Below are positions 25,793 through 41,263 of a stretch of DNA of 64,000 nt, piece after piece. Position 1 is the first letter of the stretch, and each line of letters opens with the position of its first letter. Made by a program: the position numbers and the translations under genes. Under the pieces are notes generated by a model. The model worked only from the letters and a program-made list of their open reading frames with translations. It ran no database searches and was not told where the DNA came from. This DNA is from Escherichia phage arall: the sequence record MN850584.1; one strand, given 5' to 3'.

Positions 25793-26605
25793 TTACTTAG
25801 TCAAATGATCTTCTATCATTTTTATGAAAGCAGGATTGCTAAAAGCATCTGCTGCCTTTTCTCTGTAAACAAAGACTCCTCTATCTTCGTAAAGAAGAGT
25901 TTCTTCGTAATTAATTCCTGGGTTAACAACAATCATTTTTGTACCCATATTAAGTGCAGGGAATAATTCCCAATTAAAATTGATAACTTGGTTTGAACAT
26001 CCTACTACAACAACCAAATCTTGCATGGTCAAAGTATCAAACAAGTGAGCCATATCTGCATACAAAGGTGCAGCCTCACCAAAAAATACAACATTAGGCT
26101 TCACCCAGTTATAATCATCTATGTTTATACTATTGTAACCAATATCTACCAGTGTTTTGTAATCTCCAGGATGCATACGGTAAACTACTTCAGGAAGATA
26201 CCCGTGCACGTGAATAACAGAATCCCTGTCCACACCTGCTCGCTCTAGTAGATCATCAACGTTTGTTGTCAAGTTTACTACTTGGTTAGGATATTCCTTA
26301 AACCACTTTGCTATTTGAATATGTGCAGCATTAGGTTGTACATCTTTAAGCTCAACACGTCTTTTGTTATAAAATTCGTGTGTTTTGGCATACAAGTCCA
26401 TACCGTTCTCGTCTACACCACCGACCACTGGAAGATCTGGAGATGTTCTCACACGATAACCTGCTTGGAAAGCTCCAATATCGCAGACCTCTTCTAAGTC
26501 ATATTCTTCCCATAAGGCACGACCACTATCTGTGTCTGTTCGGAACGTTCGAATCCCACTGTCTGCACTTAAACCTGCGCCACTAACAAAAATTACTCTT
26601 CGCAT
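25793..26605 (-). CDS. Sir2 (sirtuin)-family protein, Zn-ribbon-less
   Basis: GAGLSADSGIRTFR (sirtuin GAGxSxxSGIPxFR), TTNVDDL (TQNID), HVHG catalytic His, VVFFGE; no Cys4 Zn module; RBS AAGAGGA. Confidence 0.8.
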   Translation of the reverse strand: MRRVIFVSGAGLSADSGIRTFRTDTDSGRALWEEYDLEEVCDIGAFQAGYRVRTSPDLPVVGGVDENGMDLYAKTHEFYNKRRVELKDVQPNAAHIQIAKWFKEYPNQVVNLTTNVDDLLERAGVDRDSVIHVHGYLPEVVYRMHPGDYKTLVDIGYNSINIDDYNWVKPNVVFFGEAAPLYADMAHLFDTLTMQDLVVVVGCSNQVINFNWELFPALNMGTKMIVVNPGINYEETLLYEDRGVFVYREKAADAFSNPAFIKMIEDHLTK

Positions 26606-35064: not shown

Positions 35065-35105
35065 ATCTCCTCCTAATAAACCCCCTTGAGGGGGTTTGTG
35101 TTAGA

Positions 35106-35759
35106 TTAATTATCAGAGGATACTTTATCAAGTTTTTCAGAGACTGTCAATACTTTTTCTTGTGATTCTTTCATTTCTGCTAAAATACTTTCAGCTTCAT
35201 CACTATCAGGATCACCAGTCAACAGCATACTAATTAGTTGCTCCTTGCTGAAGTTCAGAATATCTTCCGCTGTTAGTTCCAGTTGTTCTTCGATCTCTTC
35301 AATAAAAGTTTCACCACCGGAAAAAGCATCTCGTAGTTTTGCAACTTCCATCGCTTCTTCTGGAGTTGCCCCTGCATCTAAAGCTGCTAAAGCAAAATCT
35401 GCCCCACTACCAACAGCATAATAATCTTCAGTTAAAGGATATGCTCGCGTTGGATTATTACCCTCGTGCATATAAATTTTACCGTCTGGGTGAACAACCA
35501 ATGCCACAAACTCTTCATCTTCTTTATCAGGATCTGACTGGATCACCAAACCTGGGATTGTCTCTTGTGCTGCTTGGCATTGTAAGTTTTGTTCGAACCA
35601 AGAAAAGAAAGTCAGGATAGAAGACAGACGTCCTGCACCACCAACAAGGTAATCCCCAATTTTACGCACTTTCTTGAAATTTAAAGTGTCTACACGACTA
35701 CCTACTGTTACTTTACCATCAGATAGAATTTTGTTATGTGTTGCAATAATTGTTGTCAT
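35106..35759 (-). CDS. HslV-like N-terminal-nucleophile (proteasome beta-type) peptidase
   Basis: MTTII (Thr right after Met), SDGKVTVG, KKVRKI, GGAGRLSSILTFFSWFE, AVGSGADFALAA match recalled HslV blocks; acidic C-terminal extension. Confidence 0.7.
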   Translation of the reverse strand: MTTIIATHNKILSDGKVTVGSRVDTLNFKKVRKIGDYLVGGAGRLSSILTFFSWFEQNLQCQAAQETIPGLVIQSDPDKEDEEFVALVVHPDGKIYMHEGNNPTRAYPLTEDYYAVGSGADFALAALDAGATPEEAMEVAKLRDAFSGGETFIEEIEEQLELTAEDILNFSKEQLISMLLTGDPDSDEAESILAEMKESQEKVLTVSEKLDKVSSDN

Positions 35760-36250
35760 TGTACTTCCTCCTGTAGTGTTTTAAGGACTGCTTTACCACC
35801 GCTTACATATTTACGGAGGTAATCAATAGCTCTTAGTGTTTCTTTATCCACAAGAATTTTATTAGTTCTTGTCAATGGATGATTCAGTAAGTCACTGCAA
35901 TTTCTTACTAACATAGATTTCTTGTGAAAGATACTGCTAAGAAAAAGAAGTTTAGAATCTTCTTCATCAATCAGGAGTAATTCTGAATTAGACCCAGCTA
36001 CATTTATTATACACTCAAACAAGCCTTCTTGACTATCAGATAATTCCTGGTAATATTTAGTTAGCCAATCCTCTCCTTTTAACCAACTAAAAAACATCTG
36101 AACTTTTTGCAAAGTTGTCATGTTCTCTAAACGAAGAGATATTTCTTTTTCAATCTTGTCAATATAAATCTGTCTAAACTCATTCGGCTTAACTAAGCCA
36201 GCTTGATAGCATTCATCAATACCATTGCGATCAATCTCAATTAGCGTCAT
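35756..36250 (-). CDS. Hypothetical protein (164 aa)
   Basis: ORF; not HslU-like. Confidence 0.55.
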   Translation of the reverse strand: MTLIEIDRNGIDECYQAGLVKPNEFRQIYIDKIEKEISLRLENMTTLQKVQMFFSWLKGEDWLTKYYQELSDSQEGLFECIINVAGSNSELLLIDEEDSKLLFLSSIFHKKSMLVRNCSDLLNHPLTRTNKILVDKETLRAIDYLRKYVSGGKAVLKTLQEEVQ

Positions 36251-36286
36251 TTAACCTCCATAATAGGCATCCTTGCCTTGTAATTA

Positions 36287-37039
36287 TTAATATACTTCCG
36301 TGATGAACTGAGACAAACGGGAACGTTGGTTATCAGCAGTTGTCATTTCAACATAACCAATAAAATCTACAATAGCTTCCCTTTCTCCTTCTTCGTTAAT
36401 AGGAACAACACGATCTAACAAATCACCTAACCCGTTAGCTCTTCGTTTAATTGCATATGTTTGATTAACATCGCCCATAATGACAATACGTGTATTAAGA
36501 CCTGCTCGCTCAAGGAGAAGTTTTACTGTATTTGGTGACATAAGTTGAACTTCATCAATAAGAATAATACTGTTATCCCACGTAGCACCTAGTGCATAGT
36601 TTGGAATATTAAGTTCAATTTTGCCACTTGCAATATCGTTTTCCAATTTATTTGCAGTCATAAACTGTTGGAAAATTCTTTTAGTTGATTCGTAGTGTGC
36701 TGCTAGTTTATCAGTCTTATCTCCAGATAAGAAACCAATTTGATCATCACCTACTTCTGTCGGGTTTTTAAGGAAAATCAACTTTCTGAAATCACCAGCT
36801 TTAAGCATTTGCAATGCTTTCCATAGTGCTGTTGTCGTTTTTCCTGTTCCTGCTGGGGCATTAACAATGGTTAAATCATTCCAAACCATGCTTCTTACAA
36901 TAGCTTCTTGATTCCCAACAGGGGTAAATTCATCAAGACGGTAATCATCATTTCCTACTGCTTTAGCCGCATAACGACTGGCACGTTTGTCATCATTGGC
37001 TGCTGATTGACGACGAGCCTTTGCGGTTTTATTTCCCAT
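36287..37039 (-). CDS. phoH: PhoH-like ATPase
   Basis: Walker A VNAPAGTGKTT, Walker B ILIDEVQ, typical PhoH size. Confidence 0.85.
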   Translation of the reverse strand: MGNKTAKARRQSAANDDKRASRYAAKAVGNDDYRLDEFTPVGNQEAIVRSMVWNDLTIVNAPAGTGKTTTALWKALQMLKAGDFRKLIFLKNPTEVGDDQIGFLSGDKTDKLAAHYESTKRIFQQFMTANKLENDIASGKIELNIPNYALGATWDNSIILIDEVQLMSPNTVKLLLERAGLNTRIVIMGDVNQTYAIKRRANGLGDLLDRVVPINEEGEREAIVDFIGYVEMTTADNQRSRLSQFITEVY

Positions 37040-37055
37040 GTTTGCACTCCTTATA

Positions 37056-37078
37056 AAAGGGGCTTTCGCCCCTTTGTT
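37056..37078. terminator. Hairpin AAAGGGGC-TTTC-GCCCCTTT (copy 2 of 3), bidirectional-type
   Basis: Between lysozyme stop and phoH start. Confidence 0.6.
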
Positions 37079-37738: not shown

Positions 37739-38005
37739 TTACTCCGCAATCTGAGCCATGAATTCACGTAGTTCAGAAAAACCTCCTACGTGGGTTAGCT
37801 GTTCACCATCTTCCACAAAAATCTGAGGAAATGTGCGTGGTAGAACACCTGTTTTCTCTAAAACCAGATTCTGAATCTGATCTAAAGAATAGTCTTCATC
37901 TAAGGTAAGATATTTAAAATCCTGTTCACGCTGTTCTAGTAGAATCTTAGCGTTAGTGCAGAAAGGACAATTTGGTTTACCGTAGATAATAAAATTCATT
38001 TTCAC
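37739..38005 (-). CDS. Glutaredoxin-like protein (CPFC active site)
   Basis: IIYGKPNCPFCTNAK, ~88 aa thioredoxin fold size. Confidence 0.8.
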   Translation of the reverse strand: MKMNFIIYGKPNCPFCTNAKILLEQREQDFKYLTLDEDYSLDQIQNLVLEKTGVLPRTFPQIFVEDGEQLTHVGGFSELREFMAQIAE

Positions 38006-38832
38006 TCCTTGTTTAAAAGTATAGTTAAAGTTCTTACAATACCGCTATCAACACTTCGCGGATTTAAAGTAGGATCTGTTTTTAAATAAGATGTTGCTGG
38101 TCTGACTGCTTTGGAATTATAGGTTGAAGCAGATACAGGATTAACTGTAACAGATAAATCTATAACAAGAAATATCTTTCGTGCAAAATCATACCAAGAA
38201 ATATAATCTGCACCTGCATAGTGTACAACTTTACTATTTACACCATCTTTTACAAGTTTAAAAATTGTTTCTGCAAGATCAGGTGCATAAGTAGGACATG
38301 ACAAATGATCACATACTACATTAAATTCTTTTTGACCACCGTTGTAGCGTTCCAACATAGTTTTCAAAAAGTTATGTCCAAATTCACTATAAACAGAAGC
38401 TGTTCTGATAATAAGTGCTGTAGGACAAACTGTTTGTACTAAAGTTTCACCTAATTGTTTACTGTAACCGTAGGTGTTCAAGGGGTTTGTTTTACTATCT
38501 TCTGTGCCAGCAACATGCCCATCAAAAACATAGTCTGTTGAAATATGTACAAACTGTATCAGTAAATCATTACATGCTTTGGCAATGTTTGTTGCACCGT
38601 ATGCATTAACATTTATACAGGTGTTAACATCTTCTTCAGCTTTATCTACTGCCGTGTAAGCCGCACAATTCACAACAACATCAGGCACGTGCTGTACAAG
38701 ACTATTCATAACATCTTTAAAGTTGGTAATGTCTATATCACTTGCTTCAATCAAAATAACATCTTCGGGCGCAACTTTTGCCAAAGACTGTCCTAATTGA
38801 CCTTTTGAACCAAAGATTAAAAATTTTGTCAA
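38002..38832 (-). CDS. rmlD: dTDP-4-dehydrorhamnose reductase
   Basis: N-terminal GxxGQLG Rossmann, HISTDYVFDG, YGYSK. Confidence 0.85.
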   Translation of the reverse strand: MTKFLIFGSKGQLGQSLAKVAPEDVILIEASDIDITNFKDVMNSLVQHVPDVVVNCAAYTAVDKAEEDVNTCINVNAYGATNIAKACNDLLIQFVHISTDYVFDGHVAGTEDSKTNPLNTYGYSKQLGETLVQTVCPTALIIRTASVYSEFGHNFLKTMLERYNGGQKEFNVVCDHLSCPTYAPDLAETIFKLVKDGVNSKVVHYAGADYISWYDFARKIFLVIDLSVTVNPVSASTYNSKAVRPATSYLKTDPTLNPRSVDSGIVRTLTILLNKE

Positions 38833-39383
38833 AATATGATCTCCTTTAGTGTTTTGGCTTGCTGATCTTTTTGTGACAAGATAGGTTTAAAATTAATATC
38901 ATTAAAGATTAAATCAAAACCCCAATCAATATTGATATCTGGATCATTCCACGCAAGACTACACTCTGAAGTCGGATCGTAATATTCTGTACATTTATAT
39001 TCAAAATCAGCAATGTCACTAATCACAACAAAGCCATGAGCGAAACCAGGAGGAATCCAAAATTGTGTTTTATTCTTTTCAGATAAGAGAACACCTACCC
39101 ATTCTCCAAATGTTGGACTACCAACCCTAATATCTACAGCAACATCATAAACTTCACCACGAACACAACGTACTAACTTCCCTTGTGGGTTTTTCTTTTG
39201 AAAATGAAGCCCACGTAGAACTCCTCGAATAGAACGTGAATGGTTATCTTGGACAAAGTTTTGTTTACCTATGTATTGATCATATAAAGCCTGATTAAAA
39301 CTTTCTAAGAAAAAACCACGTTCATCTCCGTAAACGTCAGGTTGAATGATCAACAAATCTTCGATTTTTGTTGCTTGAATCAT
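38829..39383 (-). CDS. rmlC: dTDP-4-dehydrorhamnose 3,5-epimerase
   Basis: GDERGFFLESF and cupin-like blocks, 184 aa. Confidence 0.85.
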   Translation of the reverse strand: MIQATKIEDLLIIQPDVYGDERGFFLESFNQALYDQYIGKQNFVQDNHSRSIRGVLRGLHFQKKNPQGKLVRCVRGEVYDVAVDIRVGSPTFGEWVGVLLSEKNKTQFWIPPGFAHGFVVISDIADFEYKCTEYYDPTSECSLAWNDPDINIDWGFDLIFNDINFKPILSQKDQQAKTLKEIIF

Positions 39384-39395
39384 TTAATTTCCCCT

Positions 39396-40265
39396 TTATT
39401 TTAATTTAAGTAAATACTTACCGTAGTCTGTTTTACTTAAAACCTCTCCAGAACTTTTTACAGAGTCTAAAGTAATCCATTCATTTTTAAAAGCAATCTC
39501 TTCCAGGCATGCAACCTTCATACCTTGTTGCTTTTCTATTGCATGAACAAATTGAGATGCTTCCATAAGACTTTCATGTGTTCCTGTATCCAGCCAAGTG
39601 AAACCTCTTCCTAGTTTACAGACACGTAAAGCCTTTTCTTTCCAGTACATCTCATTTATATCTGTAATCTCTAACTCCCCTCTAGCAGAAGGTTTAACGC
39701 TTTTAGCTTTCTGTACAACAGAATTATCGTAAAAGTACAAGCCTGTGATTGCATAGTTGCTTTTTGGTGCTTTTGGTTTTTCTTCAATACTCACCACTGT
39801 ACCTTCAGAATCAAACTCAACAACACCAAATCTTTCAGGATCATTTACGTGATACCCAAAAATATTAGCTCCACCATTCTTTTCAATATGTTCTTTAGCA
39901 GAATCTAAAATGCTACCAAAACTCTGACCAAAGAATAAATTATCACCTAGCACAAGTGCTACAGAATCTTCACCAATAAAGTTCTCACCAATAATAAACG
40001 CTTCTGCTAAACCTCTTGGGCTATCCTGTATTGCATACTGTAAGGAAATACCAAAAGAAGAACCATCACCTAGAAGATTTACAAAATTAATTTGATCTTC
40101 TGGTGTTGTAATTATTAGTATTTCCCTAATTCCAGAAAGCATTAGGACAGAGAGTGGATAATAAATCATAGGCTTATCATAAATTGGTAATAGTTGTTTA
40201 CTAACCCCTTTAGTAACTGGGTAAAGTCTTGTTCCACTACCACCTGCTAAGATAATACCTTTCAT
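39396..40265 (-). CDS. rmlA: Glucose-1-phosphate thymidylyltransferase
   Basis: [52 protein letters not shown] near-identical to recalled RmlA N-terminus. Confidence 0.92.
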
Positions 40266-40273
40266 ACTCCTCC

Positions 40274-41263
40274 TTAAACTTTATTTTCCCACCACTCTTT
40301 GTTATCTACATACCAATCAATGGTTGAATAAAGTTTTTCTTCAAATGTGCCTTTAGCTTTCCACCCTAATTCCTTTTCAATCTTATAAGGATTCACTTCG
40401 TATCTTAAATCATGTCCAGGTCTATCTGTAACCATTTCAATGAGGCTACAAGCATCTGTTTCAGATGGATACACCGCATCCATATAATCACAAATCATAT
40501 AGATTACATCAATATTAGTTCTAGGGTTTCTGCTCCCAATATTATATGTTTCTCCAGATTTGCCTTTAGTTACTACTAGGTGTAATGCTTCTGCGTGATC
40601 GTCAACGTATAACCAATCTCTTACTTGAAGACCATTGCCATAAACAGGGATTGGTTTATGCATCAAGATATTTGTTATCGTTTTAGGTATTAGTTTTTCT
40701 GGATGATGATATGCTCCAAAATTATTTGAACAATTTGTTATAACTGTCGGAATACCATAAGTACGATGCCATGCTCTTACCAAATGATCGCTTGCAGCTT
40801 TAGATGCAGCATATGGACTACTTGGTTTATAAGGATTCTGTTCTGTAAACGGATAATCCCCTTCTTCCATATCACCATACACTTCATCTGTTGAAATATG
40901 ATGGAACATTTTAAGATTTGATTTATCTCCCATTAAACGAACAGCTTCTAGAAGATTAAATGTTCCAACAATATTTGAATTTATAAAAACACTCGGTGAT
41001 GCTATTGAATTATCTACGTGACTCTCTGCTGCAAGATGCATTATATAATCTGGATTAACATCTGCCACAATCTTAGCAGTTAACTGCGCATTTGTCAAGT
41101 CAACACGACAAAACTTTACATTAGGTGTTTCTGATAAATTTCTAGGGTCTGAAGCGTAACCCCATTTATCTATAACGTAAATATCATTCTTAGTATTTTT
41201 AGCCAGGAAACGAACTACTGCACTTCCAATAAAGCCTAAACCACCTGTTACTAAGTATTTCAT
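40274..41263 (-). CDS. rmlB: dTDP-glucose 4,6-dehydratase
   Basis: [60 protein letters not shown]. Confidence 0.92.

What the first reader, a model, noticed from the sequence alone, without database searches (positions are those of the whole stretch)
35106..35759. Orphan HslV-like proteasome-type peptidase
The protein has the N-terminal Thr nucleophile right after Met (MTTII) and HslV-like blocks (GDG-like, KKVRKI, GSG), plus a long acidic C-terminal extension. No HslU-like ATPase is adjacent. A phage HslV homolog could pair with the host HslU to redirect proteolysis, or act alone.
Basis: partly seen in the sequence, partly recalled or inferred. Interest (0 to 1): 0.6.

Follow-up and report, generated by a model that had tools for sequence, protein, structure and literature searches.

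The report
Known phage proteasome-homologue (PPH-type) peptidase
This gene of a phi92-like E. coli phage encodes a small proteasome-like threonine peptidase with an intact active site; it is already annotated in public phage genomes, belongs to a described but biochemically unstudied phage family, and is not a true HslV.

Summary
The ORF is real: 35106-35759, minus strand, 217 aa, starting MTTII. The window is a phi92-like Escherichia myophage (99.9% identical to phage inny). The gene is Phi92_gp058, already labelled "peptidase HslV family / putative 20S proteasome".

All proteasome/HslV catalytic residues align and are 91-100% invariant in 204 relatives: Thr1, Asp17, Lys33, the oxyanion Gly, and Ser129/Asp166/Ser169.

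It is not an HslV orthologue. NCBIfam HslV models score 31-33 bits against cut-offs of 137-158. A confident AlphaFold model (pLDDT 90.9) lacks helix H2, which carries part of the HslU-tail pocket. An acidic loop replaces H2, and a conserved acidic helical tail follows the core. These are the hallmarks of the H2-less PPH/RPC branch of proteasome homologues (Fuchs, Alva and Lupas 2021), which corresponds to PHROG 1040.

No HslU or ClpX gene exists in the phage. No partner is conserved beyond close relatives. Two classic-clade AAA paralogues elsewhere in the genome are not specifically linked to it.

A natural 1,130-bp deletion in phage VEcB removes the catalytic N-terminus, so the gene looks dispensable in the laboratory.

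The most likely function is an accessory, HslU-independent threonine peptidase. This is inferred, not shown. The finding is ordinary as a discovery; the family's function remains open.

The parts
35106..35759 (-). CDS of the proteasome-homologue peptidase (Phi92_gp058-type, 217 aa; phrog_1040; PPH/RPC branch)
35286..35759 (-). Catalytic Ntn core, residues 1-158. Thr2 is the nucleophile after Met removal. Other active-site residues: Asp14, Lys30, Gly43, Ser118, Asp144, Ser147. Predicted secondary structure: strands 3-43, H1 45-67, strands 84-117, H3 120-128, H4 133-143, strand 151-155.
   Evidence: alignment with E. coli HslV and 204 relatives; AF2 model pLDDT 90.9; Foldseek hits to HslV/ClpQ, archaeal 20S beta and BPH at E about 1e-9; residue roles from PMC4792962
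35511..35558 (-). Acidic coil, residues 68-83 (IPGLVIQSDPDKEDEE, net charge -5), in the place of helix H2 and the pore-loop position of HslV and the proteasome
   Evidence: DSSP on the AF2 model shows no helix at 68-83; pairwise alignment leaves HslV residues about 66-90 unmatched; 'PPH/RPC lacks H2' in PMC8665760
35109..35285 (-). Acidic helical C-terminal extension, residues 159-217 (helices 164-169, 172-181, 188-214; net charge -10). The first module, ELT-x-ED-x-L-x-FSKEQL-x-x-LL-x-G, is conserved.
   Evidence: the motif occurs at a fixed position in 123/161 long relatives and 0/71 short ones, and 99% of tails are net acidic
35767..35772 (-). Shine-Dalgarno AGGAGG 7 nt upstream of the ATG, lying inside the 3' end of the upstream gene. 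The ATG overlaps that gene's TGA (ATGA), so translational coupling is likely.
   Evidence: sequence read directly; RBS annotated in phi92
35756..36250 (-). Upstream coupled gene (Phi92_gp059-type, 164 aa, phrog_14834, function unknown). It is a confident all-alpha fold with no informative structural neighbour.
35081..35093 (-). Terminator-like hairpin CCCCTCAAGGGGG followed by TTTATT, 13 nt after the stop codon. It is the probable 3' end of the gp059-gp058 transcription unit.
36287..37039 (-). PhoH-like P-loop NTPase, the syntenic upstream neighbour. It is not an AAA+ unfoldase.
   Evidence: Pfam PF02562 E=1.4e-35; found upstream of the peptidase gene in almost all long-form loci, including Vibrio and Aeromonas phages
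35575..36695 (-). Approximate segment missing in phage VEcB (NC_052663.1). The 1,130-bp in-frame deletion lies between two AGCAGCACA 9-mers, at 36696-36704 and 35566-35574; one copy is retained at the junction.

Best explanation
What it is. The gene encodes a member of the phage proteasome-homologue family. This family is PHROG 1040, the H2-less PPH/RPC branch of group-I proteasome homologues. The protein is not an HslV orthologue.

Likely catalytic mechanism (inferred from residue conservation):
- Host methionine aminopeptidase removes Met1. Thr is a permitted second residue, and E. coli HslV also begins MTT (established knowledge).
- Thr2 then acts as the N-terminal nucleophile.
- Lys30 and Asp14 deprotonate its hydroxyl.
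- Gly43 forms the oxyanion hole.
- Ser118, Asp144 and Ser147 hold and protonate the free amino group, as in 20S beta subunits.

Likely assembly (inferred, not shown). The well-conserved H3/H4 face is the ring-to-ring contact in proteasomes. This suggests stacked rings.

Why HslU is probably not involved. The apical face, where HslU docks on HslV, is rebuilt. H2 is replaced by an acidic 16-residue coil. A 59-residue acidic helical tail follows the core. I therefore think the protein works without HslU, as an ATP-independent peptidase on peptides or unfolded/disordered proteins. The acidic loop and tail would serve as gate or docking handle.

Expression and importance. It is co-expressed with the unknown gp059-like protein from a small unit that ends at a terminator. 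This unit sits in the early/middle nucleotide-metabolism region. It is an accessory gene, dispensable in the laboratory.
For: Family and fold:
- phrog_1040 E=9e-62; Pfam PF00227 above its gathering score.
- Foldseek hits to HslV/ClpQ, archaeal 20S beta and BPH, all at E about 1e-9.
- AF2 model pLDDT 90.9, with no H2 helix.

Active site:
- Catalytic residues are 91-100% invariant over 204 relatives; 189/226 relatives start MTT.
- The RD-x-x-SGG motif matches the proteasome Asp166/Ser169 spacing.

Not HslV:
- NCBIfam HslV equivalogs score 31-33 bits against cut-offs of 137-158.
- The HslU-tail pocket needs H2 residues 79/80, and H2 is absent here.

No ATPase partner:
- No HslU or ClpX gene in the whole genome of a 99.2% relative.
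- No AAA gene within 10 kb in 24 loci.
- Fuchs et al. also found no co-occurring AAA+ for these families.

Tail is under selection: the motif is present in 123/161 long members and 99% of tails are acidic.

Evolutionary rate is comparable to the neighbouring enzymes: at one divergence level the peptidase is 63-64% identical, PhoH 62-65% and lysozyme 61-64%.

Accessory status:
- The VEcB deletion removes Thr1 to Gly43.
- gp58 is absent from the phi92 whole-virion structure paper.
- The subfamily is essentially absent from 185,579 bacterial and archaeal species genomes, with a single hit on a 425-bp contig.
Against: - No biochemical, genetic or expression data exist for any member.
- HslU independence rests on a monomer model and on sequence. 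I could not dock or co-fold with HslU.
- Part of the H1 side of the pocket is retained (F52 aligns with HslV Phe57). All known hosts of the long subfamily possess HslU.
- The oligomeric state is unknown. Fuchs et al. warn that some homologues may not form rings.
- The VEcB deletion could be an assembly artefact or come from a mixed stock.
- No substrate is known, so 'peptides/unfolded proteins' is an argument by analogy with uncapped 20S, BPH and free HslV.
Confidence: 0.6

Rival explanations
1. The phage peptidase docks onto the host HslU hexamer, replacing or competing with host HslV, and so redirects ATP-dependent proteolysis during infection.
For: Cellular HslV is the closest named cellular relative by sequence. 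The N-terminus is of the same MTT type. H1 is retained, and F52 aligns with pocket residue Phe57 of HslV. The hosts (E. coli, Klebsiella, Vibrio, Aeromonas) have HslU (general knowledge).
Against: - H2, which contributes pocket residues 79/80, is missing and replaced by an acidic coil.
- HslV Lys28, which I recall as the partner of the HslU C-terminal carboxylate, aligns with the non-conserved T25 (the role is from memory).
- The protein fails the HslV equivalog models by more than 100 bits.
- By fold it is as close to archaeal 20S beta and BPH as to HslV.
- The 2021 survey lists the related PPH cluster in Actinobacteria as well, a phylum its table shows without HslV.
Confidence: 0.15
2. The peptidase is the proteolytic core of a phage-encoded AAA-protease. 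Its unfoldase would be one or both of the two paralogous classic-clade AAA ATPases (phrog_2376, 375 and 386 aa) encoded elsewhere in the genome.
For: - Both ATPases hit Pfam AAA PF00004.
- They are weakly related to p97/Cdc48, spastin and fidgetin. Proteasomal ATPases belong to the same classic clade (general knowledge).
- The 386-aa paralogue keeps a pore-loop-like AFNGEG.
- Every Escherichia phage carrying the peptidase appears to carry the ATPases too: 106 Escherichia records in each search.
Against: - The ATPase family occurs in 302 phage records. These include Lactococcus, Lactobacillus, Bacillus, Staphylococcus, crAss-like and jumbo phages, which are not in the peptidase list. At least 136 ATPase records therefore lack the peptidase.
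- At least 5 of the 12 Vibrio phages with the peptidase lack the ATPase at E<=1e-5.
- The genes lie roughly 40-55 kb apart in VivaForever. They are never within 10 kb of each other in 24 loci.
- The C-termini (…GGRSY and …LASVF) are not HbYX or HslU-like.
Confidence: 0.07
3. The protein is an active Ntn enzyme but not a general peptidase. It might be a sequence-specific processing enzyme, a transpeptidase/ligase (as connectase is), or an amidohydrolase acting on one phage or host target. gp059 might deliver that target.
For: - Connectase shows that proteasome homologues can be ligases.
- The conserved tail and the coupled gp059 gene suggest specific interactions.
- Loss of H2 changes the surroundings of the active-site cleft.
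Against: - The full proteasome double triad is present.
- Connectase lacks both H1 and H2 and carries a two-helix S3/S4 insertion over the active site; the query keeps H1 and shows no such insertion.
- gp059 is not conserved across the family.
- Short family members have no tail at all.
Confidence: 0.1
4. It is a catalytically silent decoy or structural protein, or the prohead maturation protease.
For: None specific. Proteases in phage genomes are often morphogenetic.
Against: - Invariance of every catalytic residue argues against a pseudoenzyme.
- The gene lies far from the head module, which has its own portal-to-major-capsid block.
- It is not mentioned in the phi92 virion structure paper.
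- A viable phage record lacks its catalytic half.
- Vibrio phage VnaP has a separate S49 head protease.
Confidence: 0.03

Closest known systems
[quoted passage not shown]
   Same: - H2-less proteasome-like fold with Thr1, Asp17, Lys33 and Gly47, and no propeptide.
- Carried by tailed phages of Proteobacteria.
- No linked AAA+ gene.
- A C-terminal extension, as described for RPC.
- Short relatives of about 140-155 aa are found at E=1e-10 to 1e-15 and fall in the same PHROG.
   Different: - PPH is described as about 140 residues; this protein has 217.
- RPC is listed for Proteobacteria only, not for phages.
- I could not place the protein on the authors' cluster map, so which of the two named clusters holds it is undetermined.
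- This long subfamily is virtually absent from bacterial genomes, whereas PPH is frequent in prophages.
HslV (ClpQ), proteolytic core of HslUV
   Same: The Ntn fold, an MTT N-terminus without propeptide, the catalytic residues, and a GSG motif. It is the best PDB sequence hit (E=9e-8).
   Different: - 31-33 bits against equivalog cut-offs of 137-158.
- A shorter first hairpin.
- No H2, so part of the HslU-tail pocket is missing.
- RD-x-x-SGG in place of HslV's LDIAGD.
- Net charge -23 against -3.
- A 59-residue tail.
- No hslU neighbour.
BPH (beta-proteobacterial proteasome homologue)
   Same: A group-I homologue with no known unfoldase. It has a long acidic segment at the pore-loop position. 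The Foldseek E-value is similar to that for HslV.
   Different: BPH keeps H2, forms heptameric double rings, is chromosomal and has no C-terminal tail. TM-scores to BPH are lower (0.48) than to HslV or 20S beta (0.52-0.57).
Archaeal and eukaryotic 20S proteasome beta subunits
   Same: Both triads, including the Asp166-x-x-Ser169-Gly-Gly motif. TM-scores reach 0.57-0.70 to S. acidocaldarius beta.
   Different: No propeptide, no alpha-ring partner, no H2, and no H5.

Membership tests
Proteasome-like Ntn hydrolases (Pfam PF00227 superfamily) | N-terminal Thr (or Ser) nucleophile exposed at residue 1 of the mature chain | tested here: met
   The sequence begins M-T2. T2 is present in 204/204 aligned relatives, and 189/226 start MTT. 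Met removal itself is inferred.
Proteasome-like Ntn hydrolases (Pfam PF00227 superfamily) | Asp/Glu17, Lys33 and the oxyanion Gly47 | tested here: met
   D14 203/204, K30 203/204 and G43 203/204. These align with HslV D17, K33 and the AGG glycine.
Proteasome-like Ntn hydrolases (Pfam PF00227 superfamily) | Second triad: Ser129, Asp166, Ser169 | tested here: met
   S118 is 185 Ser plus 15 Thr, D144 is 192/204, and S147 is 145 Ser plus 48 Thr, with D-x-x-S-G-G spacing. Residue roles are from PMC4792962.
Proteasome-like Ntn hydrolases (Pfam PF00227 superfamily) | Alpha-beta-beta-alpha sandwich fold, and a profile score above the curated threshold | tested here: met
   AF2 pLDDT 90.9. Foldseek probability 1.00 to HslV, 20S beta and BPH. 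PF00227 scores 25.0 bits against a gathering score of 22.4.
HslV (ClpQ) proper | Scores above the curated equivalog cut-offs (TIGR03692, NF003964) | tested here: not met
   31.1 bits against 157.75, and 33.3 bits against 137.
HslV (ClpQ) proper | Helices H1 and H2 forming the inter-subunit pocket for the HslU C-terminus (residues 54, 57, 79/80, 114) | tested here: not met
   H2 is absent in the model; residues 68-83 are coil. Pocket residues are from PMC6429459. Only the H1 part is alignable.
HslV (ClpQ) proper | Operon or genomic partnership with hslU | tested here: not met
   No HslU or ClpX-type gene is adjacent or anywhere in the 99.2% relative's genome.
HslV (ClpQ) proper | Double-hexamer assembly and activation by HslU plus ATP | not testable with these tools
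   Only monomer prediction was available, and foreign sequences could not be submitted.
PPH/RPC branch (Fuchs et al. 2021) / PHROG 1040 | Proteasome-like core lacking helix H2 | tested here: met
   compared with the description.
PPH/RPC branch (Fuchs et al. 2021) / PHROG 1040 | Encoded by tailed phages or prophages of Proteobacteria | tested here: met
   166 phage records, 19 IMG/VR loci, and phage-like contexts for short members.
PPH/RPC branch (Fuchs et al. 2021) / PHROG 1040 | Length of about 140 residues (PPH), or an additional C-terminal extension (RPC) | tested here: inconclusive
   217 aa with a 59-residue tail fits the RPC description. Phage carriage fits PPH. Short relatives of 130-160 aa are significant hits.
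PPH/RPC branch (Fuchs et al. 2021) / PHROG 1040 | Membership of the authors' CLANS cluster, or direct similarity to their representatives WP_042125023.1 and WP_140207863 | not testable with these tools
   Accessions cannot be fetched, and the supplement holds no sequence lists. As a surrogate, phrog_1040 matches the query (E=9e-62), a short member (E=2.8e-28) and the second VnaP paralogue (E=7e-22).

The most novel reading that the evidence does not exclude
The acidic tail, and/or the acidic loop that replaces H2, acts in cis or on a neighbouring subunit. It would do the job that H2 and the inserted HslU C-termini do in HslVU. That would make this a self-activated, unfoldase-independent mini-proteasome. 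Virulent phages would use it during takeover, for example to clear disordered host or defence proteins or to recycle peptides. The tail's conserved ELT..SKEELL..L module would be the handle that recruits substrates or a partner.
Probability: 0.12. Interest if true: 0.7.

Novelty: already known. Interest (0 to 1): 0.3.

Why it matters
As a discovery it adds little. The gene is annotated in dozens of phi92-like and phAPEC8-like genomes, and its family was catalogued in 2021.

What remains open, and is of real interest, is function. No phage proteasome homologue has been characterised. The family is large, with about 2,000 representative clusters. Its active site is under strict conservation. It shows no ATPase partner.

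This phi92-type protein would be a convenient entry point. It comes from a well-studied E. coli phage, it yields a high-confidence model, and a natural deletion variant (VEcB) is available for phenotype comparison.

Annotation pipelines also label it 'HslV family', or in some records 'ATP-dependent protease subunit'. That overstates what is known and implies an HslU dependence the sequence does not support.

Tried and rejected
1. Conserved adjacent partner. The gp059-like gene is linked only among relatives at 34% identity or more. BLASTP and hhalign find nothing in Vibrio or Aeromonas phages. Its predicted fold has no informative neighbour.
2. Named domain in the tail. The two tail motifs looked HeH/SAP-like by eye, but Pfam gives no support. 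I dropped this as a claim.
3. Phage AAA ATPases as unfoldase. The phyletic patterns do not match.
4. Defence or anti-defence link. There are no PADLOC hits for the peptidase or either flanking protein.
5. Virion or morphogenetic role. There is no mention in the phi92 whole-virion paper, and the gene lies outside the head module.
6. Bacterial or prophage copies of the long subfamily. One 425-bp contig was the only hit among 185,579 species. Alignments A1 and A2 were too diverse for that tool.
7. The AFDB fold library was unavailable.
8. Placing the protein in PPH versus RPC through the paper's supplement: no sequence lists are held.
9. Ramachandran 2002, on HslV-HslU interface mutants, is not held.
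10. Promoter scan: not above shuffled expectation, 27 found against 20 +/- 4.5.
11. Literature: ten searches found no functional study.

Full report
**Observation.** The window holds an ORF at 35106..35759 on the minus strand. It encodes 217 aa beginning MTTIIATHNKILSDGK. An AGGAGG ribosome-binding site lies 7 nt upstream of the ATG. The ATG overlaps the stop codon of the upstream 164-aa ORF (ATGA). A terminator-like hairpin, CCCCTCAAGGGGG followed by a T-rich run, lies 13 nt after the stop codon. So is the acidic tail, residues 159-217, with net charge -10; the whole protein has net charge -23 and pI 4.3. The plus-strand ORFs that overlap the gene are shadow ORFs.

**Source of the window.** The 4-kb neighbourhood is 99.9% identical to Escherichia phage inny and 98.8% identical to phi92 (genus Justusliebigvirus, subfamily Stephanstirmvirinae). 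The gene is Phi92_gp058. The phi92 record annotates it as 'putative 20S proteasome'. RefSeq and many newer records call it 'peptidase HslV family', and a few say 'ATP-dependent protease subunit'. The object is therefore not new.

**Is it more than chance, and is the Thr1 context real?**
- PHROG phrog_1040 'peptidase HslV family', E=9e-62.
- Pfam Proteasome PF00227, 25 bits against a gathering score of 22.4.
- Best PDB sequence hit is T. maritima HslV, E=9e-8.
- An exhaustive phmmer search over 1.84 billion representatives gave 1993 clusters at E<=1e-3. Nearly all align from residue 1.
- 189 of 226 retrieved proteins begin MTT.

I aligned the query with 203 family members and added E. coli HslV as a reference. 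Counts over the 204 query-family sequences:

| Query residue | HslV / proteasome equivalent | Conservation |
|---|---|---|
| T2 | Thr1 | 204/204 |
| D14 | Asp17 | 203/204 |
| K30 | Lys33 | 203/204 |
| G43 | oxyanion-hole glycine | 203/204 |
| G117-S118-G119 | G-S-G (Ser129) | 204 / 185 Ser + 15 Thr / 203 |
| D144 | Asp166 | 192/204 |
| S147 | Ser169 | 145 Ser + 48 Thr |

- The last two residues, followed by G148-G149, form RD-x-x-SGG. This is the Asp166-x-x-Ser169 arrangement that, with Ser129, makes up the second proteasomal triad (PMC4792962).

**It is not an HslV.**
- NCBIfam's two HslV equivalog models score 31 and 33 bits against cut-offs of 158 and 137.
- An AlphaFold2 model built on a 70-sequence alignment is confident (pLDDT 90.9, pTM 0.75). 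It shows the beta-sandwich with H1 (residues 45-67), H3 and H4. It has no H2: residues 68-83 (IPGLVIQSDPDKEDEE, net charge -5) are coil. Three extra helices follow the core, at 164-169, 172-181 and 188-214.
- Foldseek against the PDB returns HslV/ClpQ, S. acidocaldarius 20S beta and BPH at indistinguishable E-values of about 1e-9, with TM-scores of 0.48-0.57 normalised to the query. No closer solved structure exists.

**Family assignment.**
- Fuchs, Alva and Lupas (2021, PMC8665760) catalogued exactly such proteins. [quoted passage not shown] They state that PPH/RPC are the homologues that lack H2.
- The query's distant relatives include many proteins of 130-160 aa that sit in phage-like contigs.
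- phrog_1040 matches the query, a 153-aa member and a second paralogue in Vibrio phage VnaP.
- I therefore file the protein in the PPH/RPC branch. I could not decide which of the two named clusters holds it.

**Partners.**
- No HslU or ClpX-type gene is adjacent. None is annotated in the complete genome of the 99.2%-identical phage VivaForever.
- The upstream, translationally coupled gp059-like gene (phrog_14834) stays next to the peptidase gene in relatives down to 34-38% identity. It is adjacent in 18 of 19 IMG/VR loci.
- In Vibrio and Aeromonas phages, unrelated ORFs of 155-183 aa occupy that position.
- PhoH lies upstream in almost every long-form locus. It is a P-loop NTPase, not an unfoldase. 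The whole RNR-glutaredoxin-lysozyme-PhoH block is a conserved backbone, so this linkage carries little information.
- The genome also encodes two paralogous classic-clade AAA ATPases, outside the window (PF00004; phrog_2376; weakly p97/spastin-like). One has a pore-loop-like AFNGEG. That family occurs in 302 phage records of very different lineages, whereas the peptidase occurs in 166. At least five Vibrio phages with the peptidase lack the ATPase, and the genes are never neighbours. I rate this pairing as unlikely.

**HslU pairing.**
- The HslU C-terminus inserts into a pocket between HslV subunits. That pocket is lined by residues 54 and 57 (H1), 79/80 (H2) and 114 (PMC6429459).
- H2 does not exist here. 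The region around residue 114 is not alignable, and only the H1 part persists.
- H1/H2 form the apical face of proteasome-type rings, while H3/H4 make the ring-to-ring contact. The H3/H4 residues A123, A126, G130, A136 and A140 are 94-99% conserved.
- I infer that ring stacking may be kept while the apical docking surface has been rebuilt. Fuchs et al. note that BPH, which has no known unfoldase, carries a long acidic loop at the same position. This is inference from a monomer model and not a test.

**The tail.**
- 123 of 161 relatives of 180 aa or more carry the module [ST]-K-E-E-L-L-x-x-L at residues 167-177. None of 71 short relatives does.
- 99% of tails are net acidic, with a mean of -0.16 charge per residue.
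- Beyond that module the tails vary widely, reaching a total protein length of about 380 aa. A subset ends in a second motif, LGIKY-x-HNIG-x-EKL.
- No Pfam family matches any tail.
- Acidity and the first two helices are therefore selected features. Their role as gate, cis-activator or docking handle is unknown.

**Dispensability.**
- Protein P0043 from phage VEcB consists of PhoH residues 1-113 fused to residues 64-217 of the peptidase.
- At the DNA level, NC_052663.1 lacks 1,130 bp relative to the window. The junction falls at a 9-bp direct repeat, AGCAGCACA, present in both genes, and the fusion is in frame.
- The deletion removes half of PhoH, all of gp059, and Thr1, Asp14, Lys30 and Gly43 of the peptidase.
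- Another VEcB record, OZ035773.1, has the region intact.
- Unless this is an assembly artefact, the three genes are not needed for propagation in the laboratory. This fits an accessory role and excludes a morphogenetic one.
- The long subfamily is also essentially absent from bacterial genomes: one 425-bp contig among 185,579 species.

**Most likely mechanism (confidence about 0.6).**
- Met1 is removed by host methionine aminopeptidase.
- Thr2 attacks the scissile bond, assisted by Lys30/Asp14, Gly43 and Ser118/Asp144/Ser147.
- The enzyme probably self-assembles and acts without ATP or HslU on peptides or unfolded/disordered proteins during the early/middle phase of infection.
- The acidic loop and tail would control access or recruit partners.
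- Shown: the fold, the residue conservation, the absence of H2, the absence of an unfoldase gene next to it, the family distribution and the deletion variant.
- Inferred: catalysis, assembly, HslU independence and substrate class.

**Verdict.** Novelty is 'already known', and interest is about 0.3. The remaining value is that the function of phage proteasome homologues is completely open. No functional study was found in ten literature searches. This E. coli phage protein would be a practical model for addressing it.

Noticed in passing
window 35566-36704 (minus strand); NC_052663.1 21495-22298 (L016:1501-2304): The phage VEcB RefSeq record carries a 1,130-bp in-frame deletion between two AGCAGCACA 9-mers. 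It fuses PhoH residues 1-113 to residues 64-217 of the peptidase and deletes gp059. This is a natural triple knockout in a deposited, propagating phage. Another VEcB record (OZ035773.1) is intact. RefSeq still names the fusion 'peptidase HslV family'.
   Followed up: yes
outside the window; VivaForever PP925843.1 101622-102749 (-) and 116729-117889 (+) (L014:1622-2749, L014:16729-17889): Two paralogous classic-clade AAA ATPases (375 and 386 aa, PF00004, phrog_2376), each with a C-terminal region of about 190 residues that has no Pfam match. One has a pore-loop-like AFNGEG and the other a degenerate AYSDAN. The family is spread over 302 phage records, from coliphages to Lactococcus, Bacillus, Staphylococcus, crAss-like and jumbo phages. 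Function unknown.
   Followed up: partly
L036:240-2417, L036:26210-26755, L004:5001-5834, L004:9869-10465 (Vibrio phage VnaP, ON212104.1): One Vibrio phage carries two phrog_1040 proteasome-homologue paralogues (181 and 277 aa), a 725-aa ClpA/B-like ATPase (phrog_4871), a ClpP-like subunit and an S49 head protease. This is an unusually rich set of proteolysis genes for a phage.
   Followed up: partly
[not shown]
   Followed up: partly
window 38002-41263 (-): Four consecutive genes resemble the dTDP-L-rhamnose pathway (RmlD-, RmlC-, RmlA- and RmlB-like, according to the phi92 and VivaForever annotation). They lie just upstream of the glutaredoxin-lysozyme-PhoH block.
   Followed up: no
window 25793-26605 (-): A Sir2-like NAD-dependent deacetylase homologue (phi92 gp038). 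The genome also encodes NAMPT and PRPP synthetase, which suggests NAD+ salvage. This may be relevant to NAD-depleting defence systems.
   Followed up: no
window 37056-37075 and 36265-36278: GC-rich hairpins lie in the short intergenic gaps between lysozyme and PhoH and between PhoH and gp059. The first is AAAGGGGC-TTTC-GCCCCTTT. They are possible attenuators or processing sites that subdivide the leftward gene array.
   Followed up: no
MG065645.1 (Campylobacter phage A145) and four other 'Campylobacter' records: Records labelled as Campylobacter jejuni phages are about 99% identical to these E. coli phi92-like phages across the region. The host assignment looks doubtful.
   Followed up: no
L015 (JAPMLR010000072.1, 425 bp, Lysobacteraceae bacterium assembly): The only bacterial-genome hit to the long subfamily is a 425-bp contig at 75% identity. 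It is most likely phage contamination of the assembly rather than a chromosomal gene.
   Followed up: no
NC_052654.1 (Escherichia phage vB_EcoM-Ro121c4YLVW), protein P0072: The homologue is annotated from an internal Met (159 aa, lacking Thr1), although tblastn shows the full-length ORF intact (query residues 1-202 in one piece). This is a start-site mis-annotation.
   Followed up: partly
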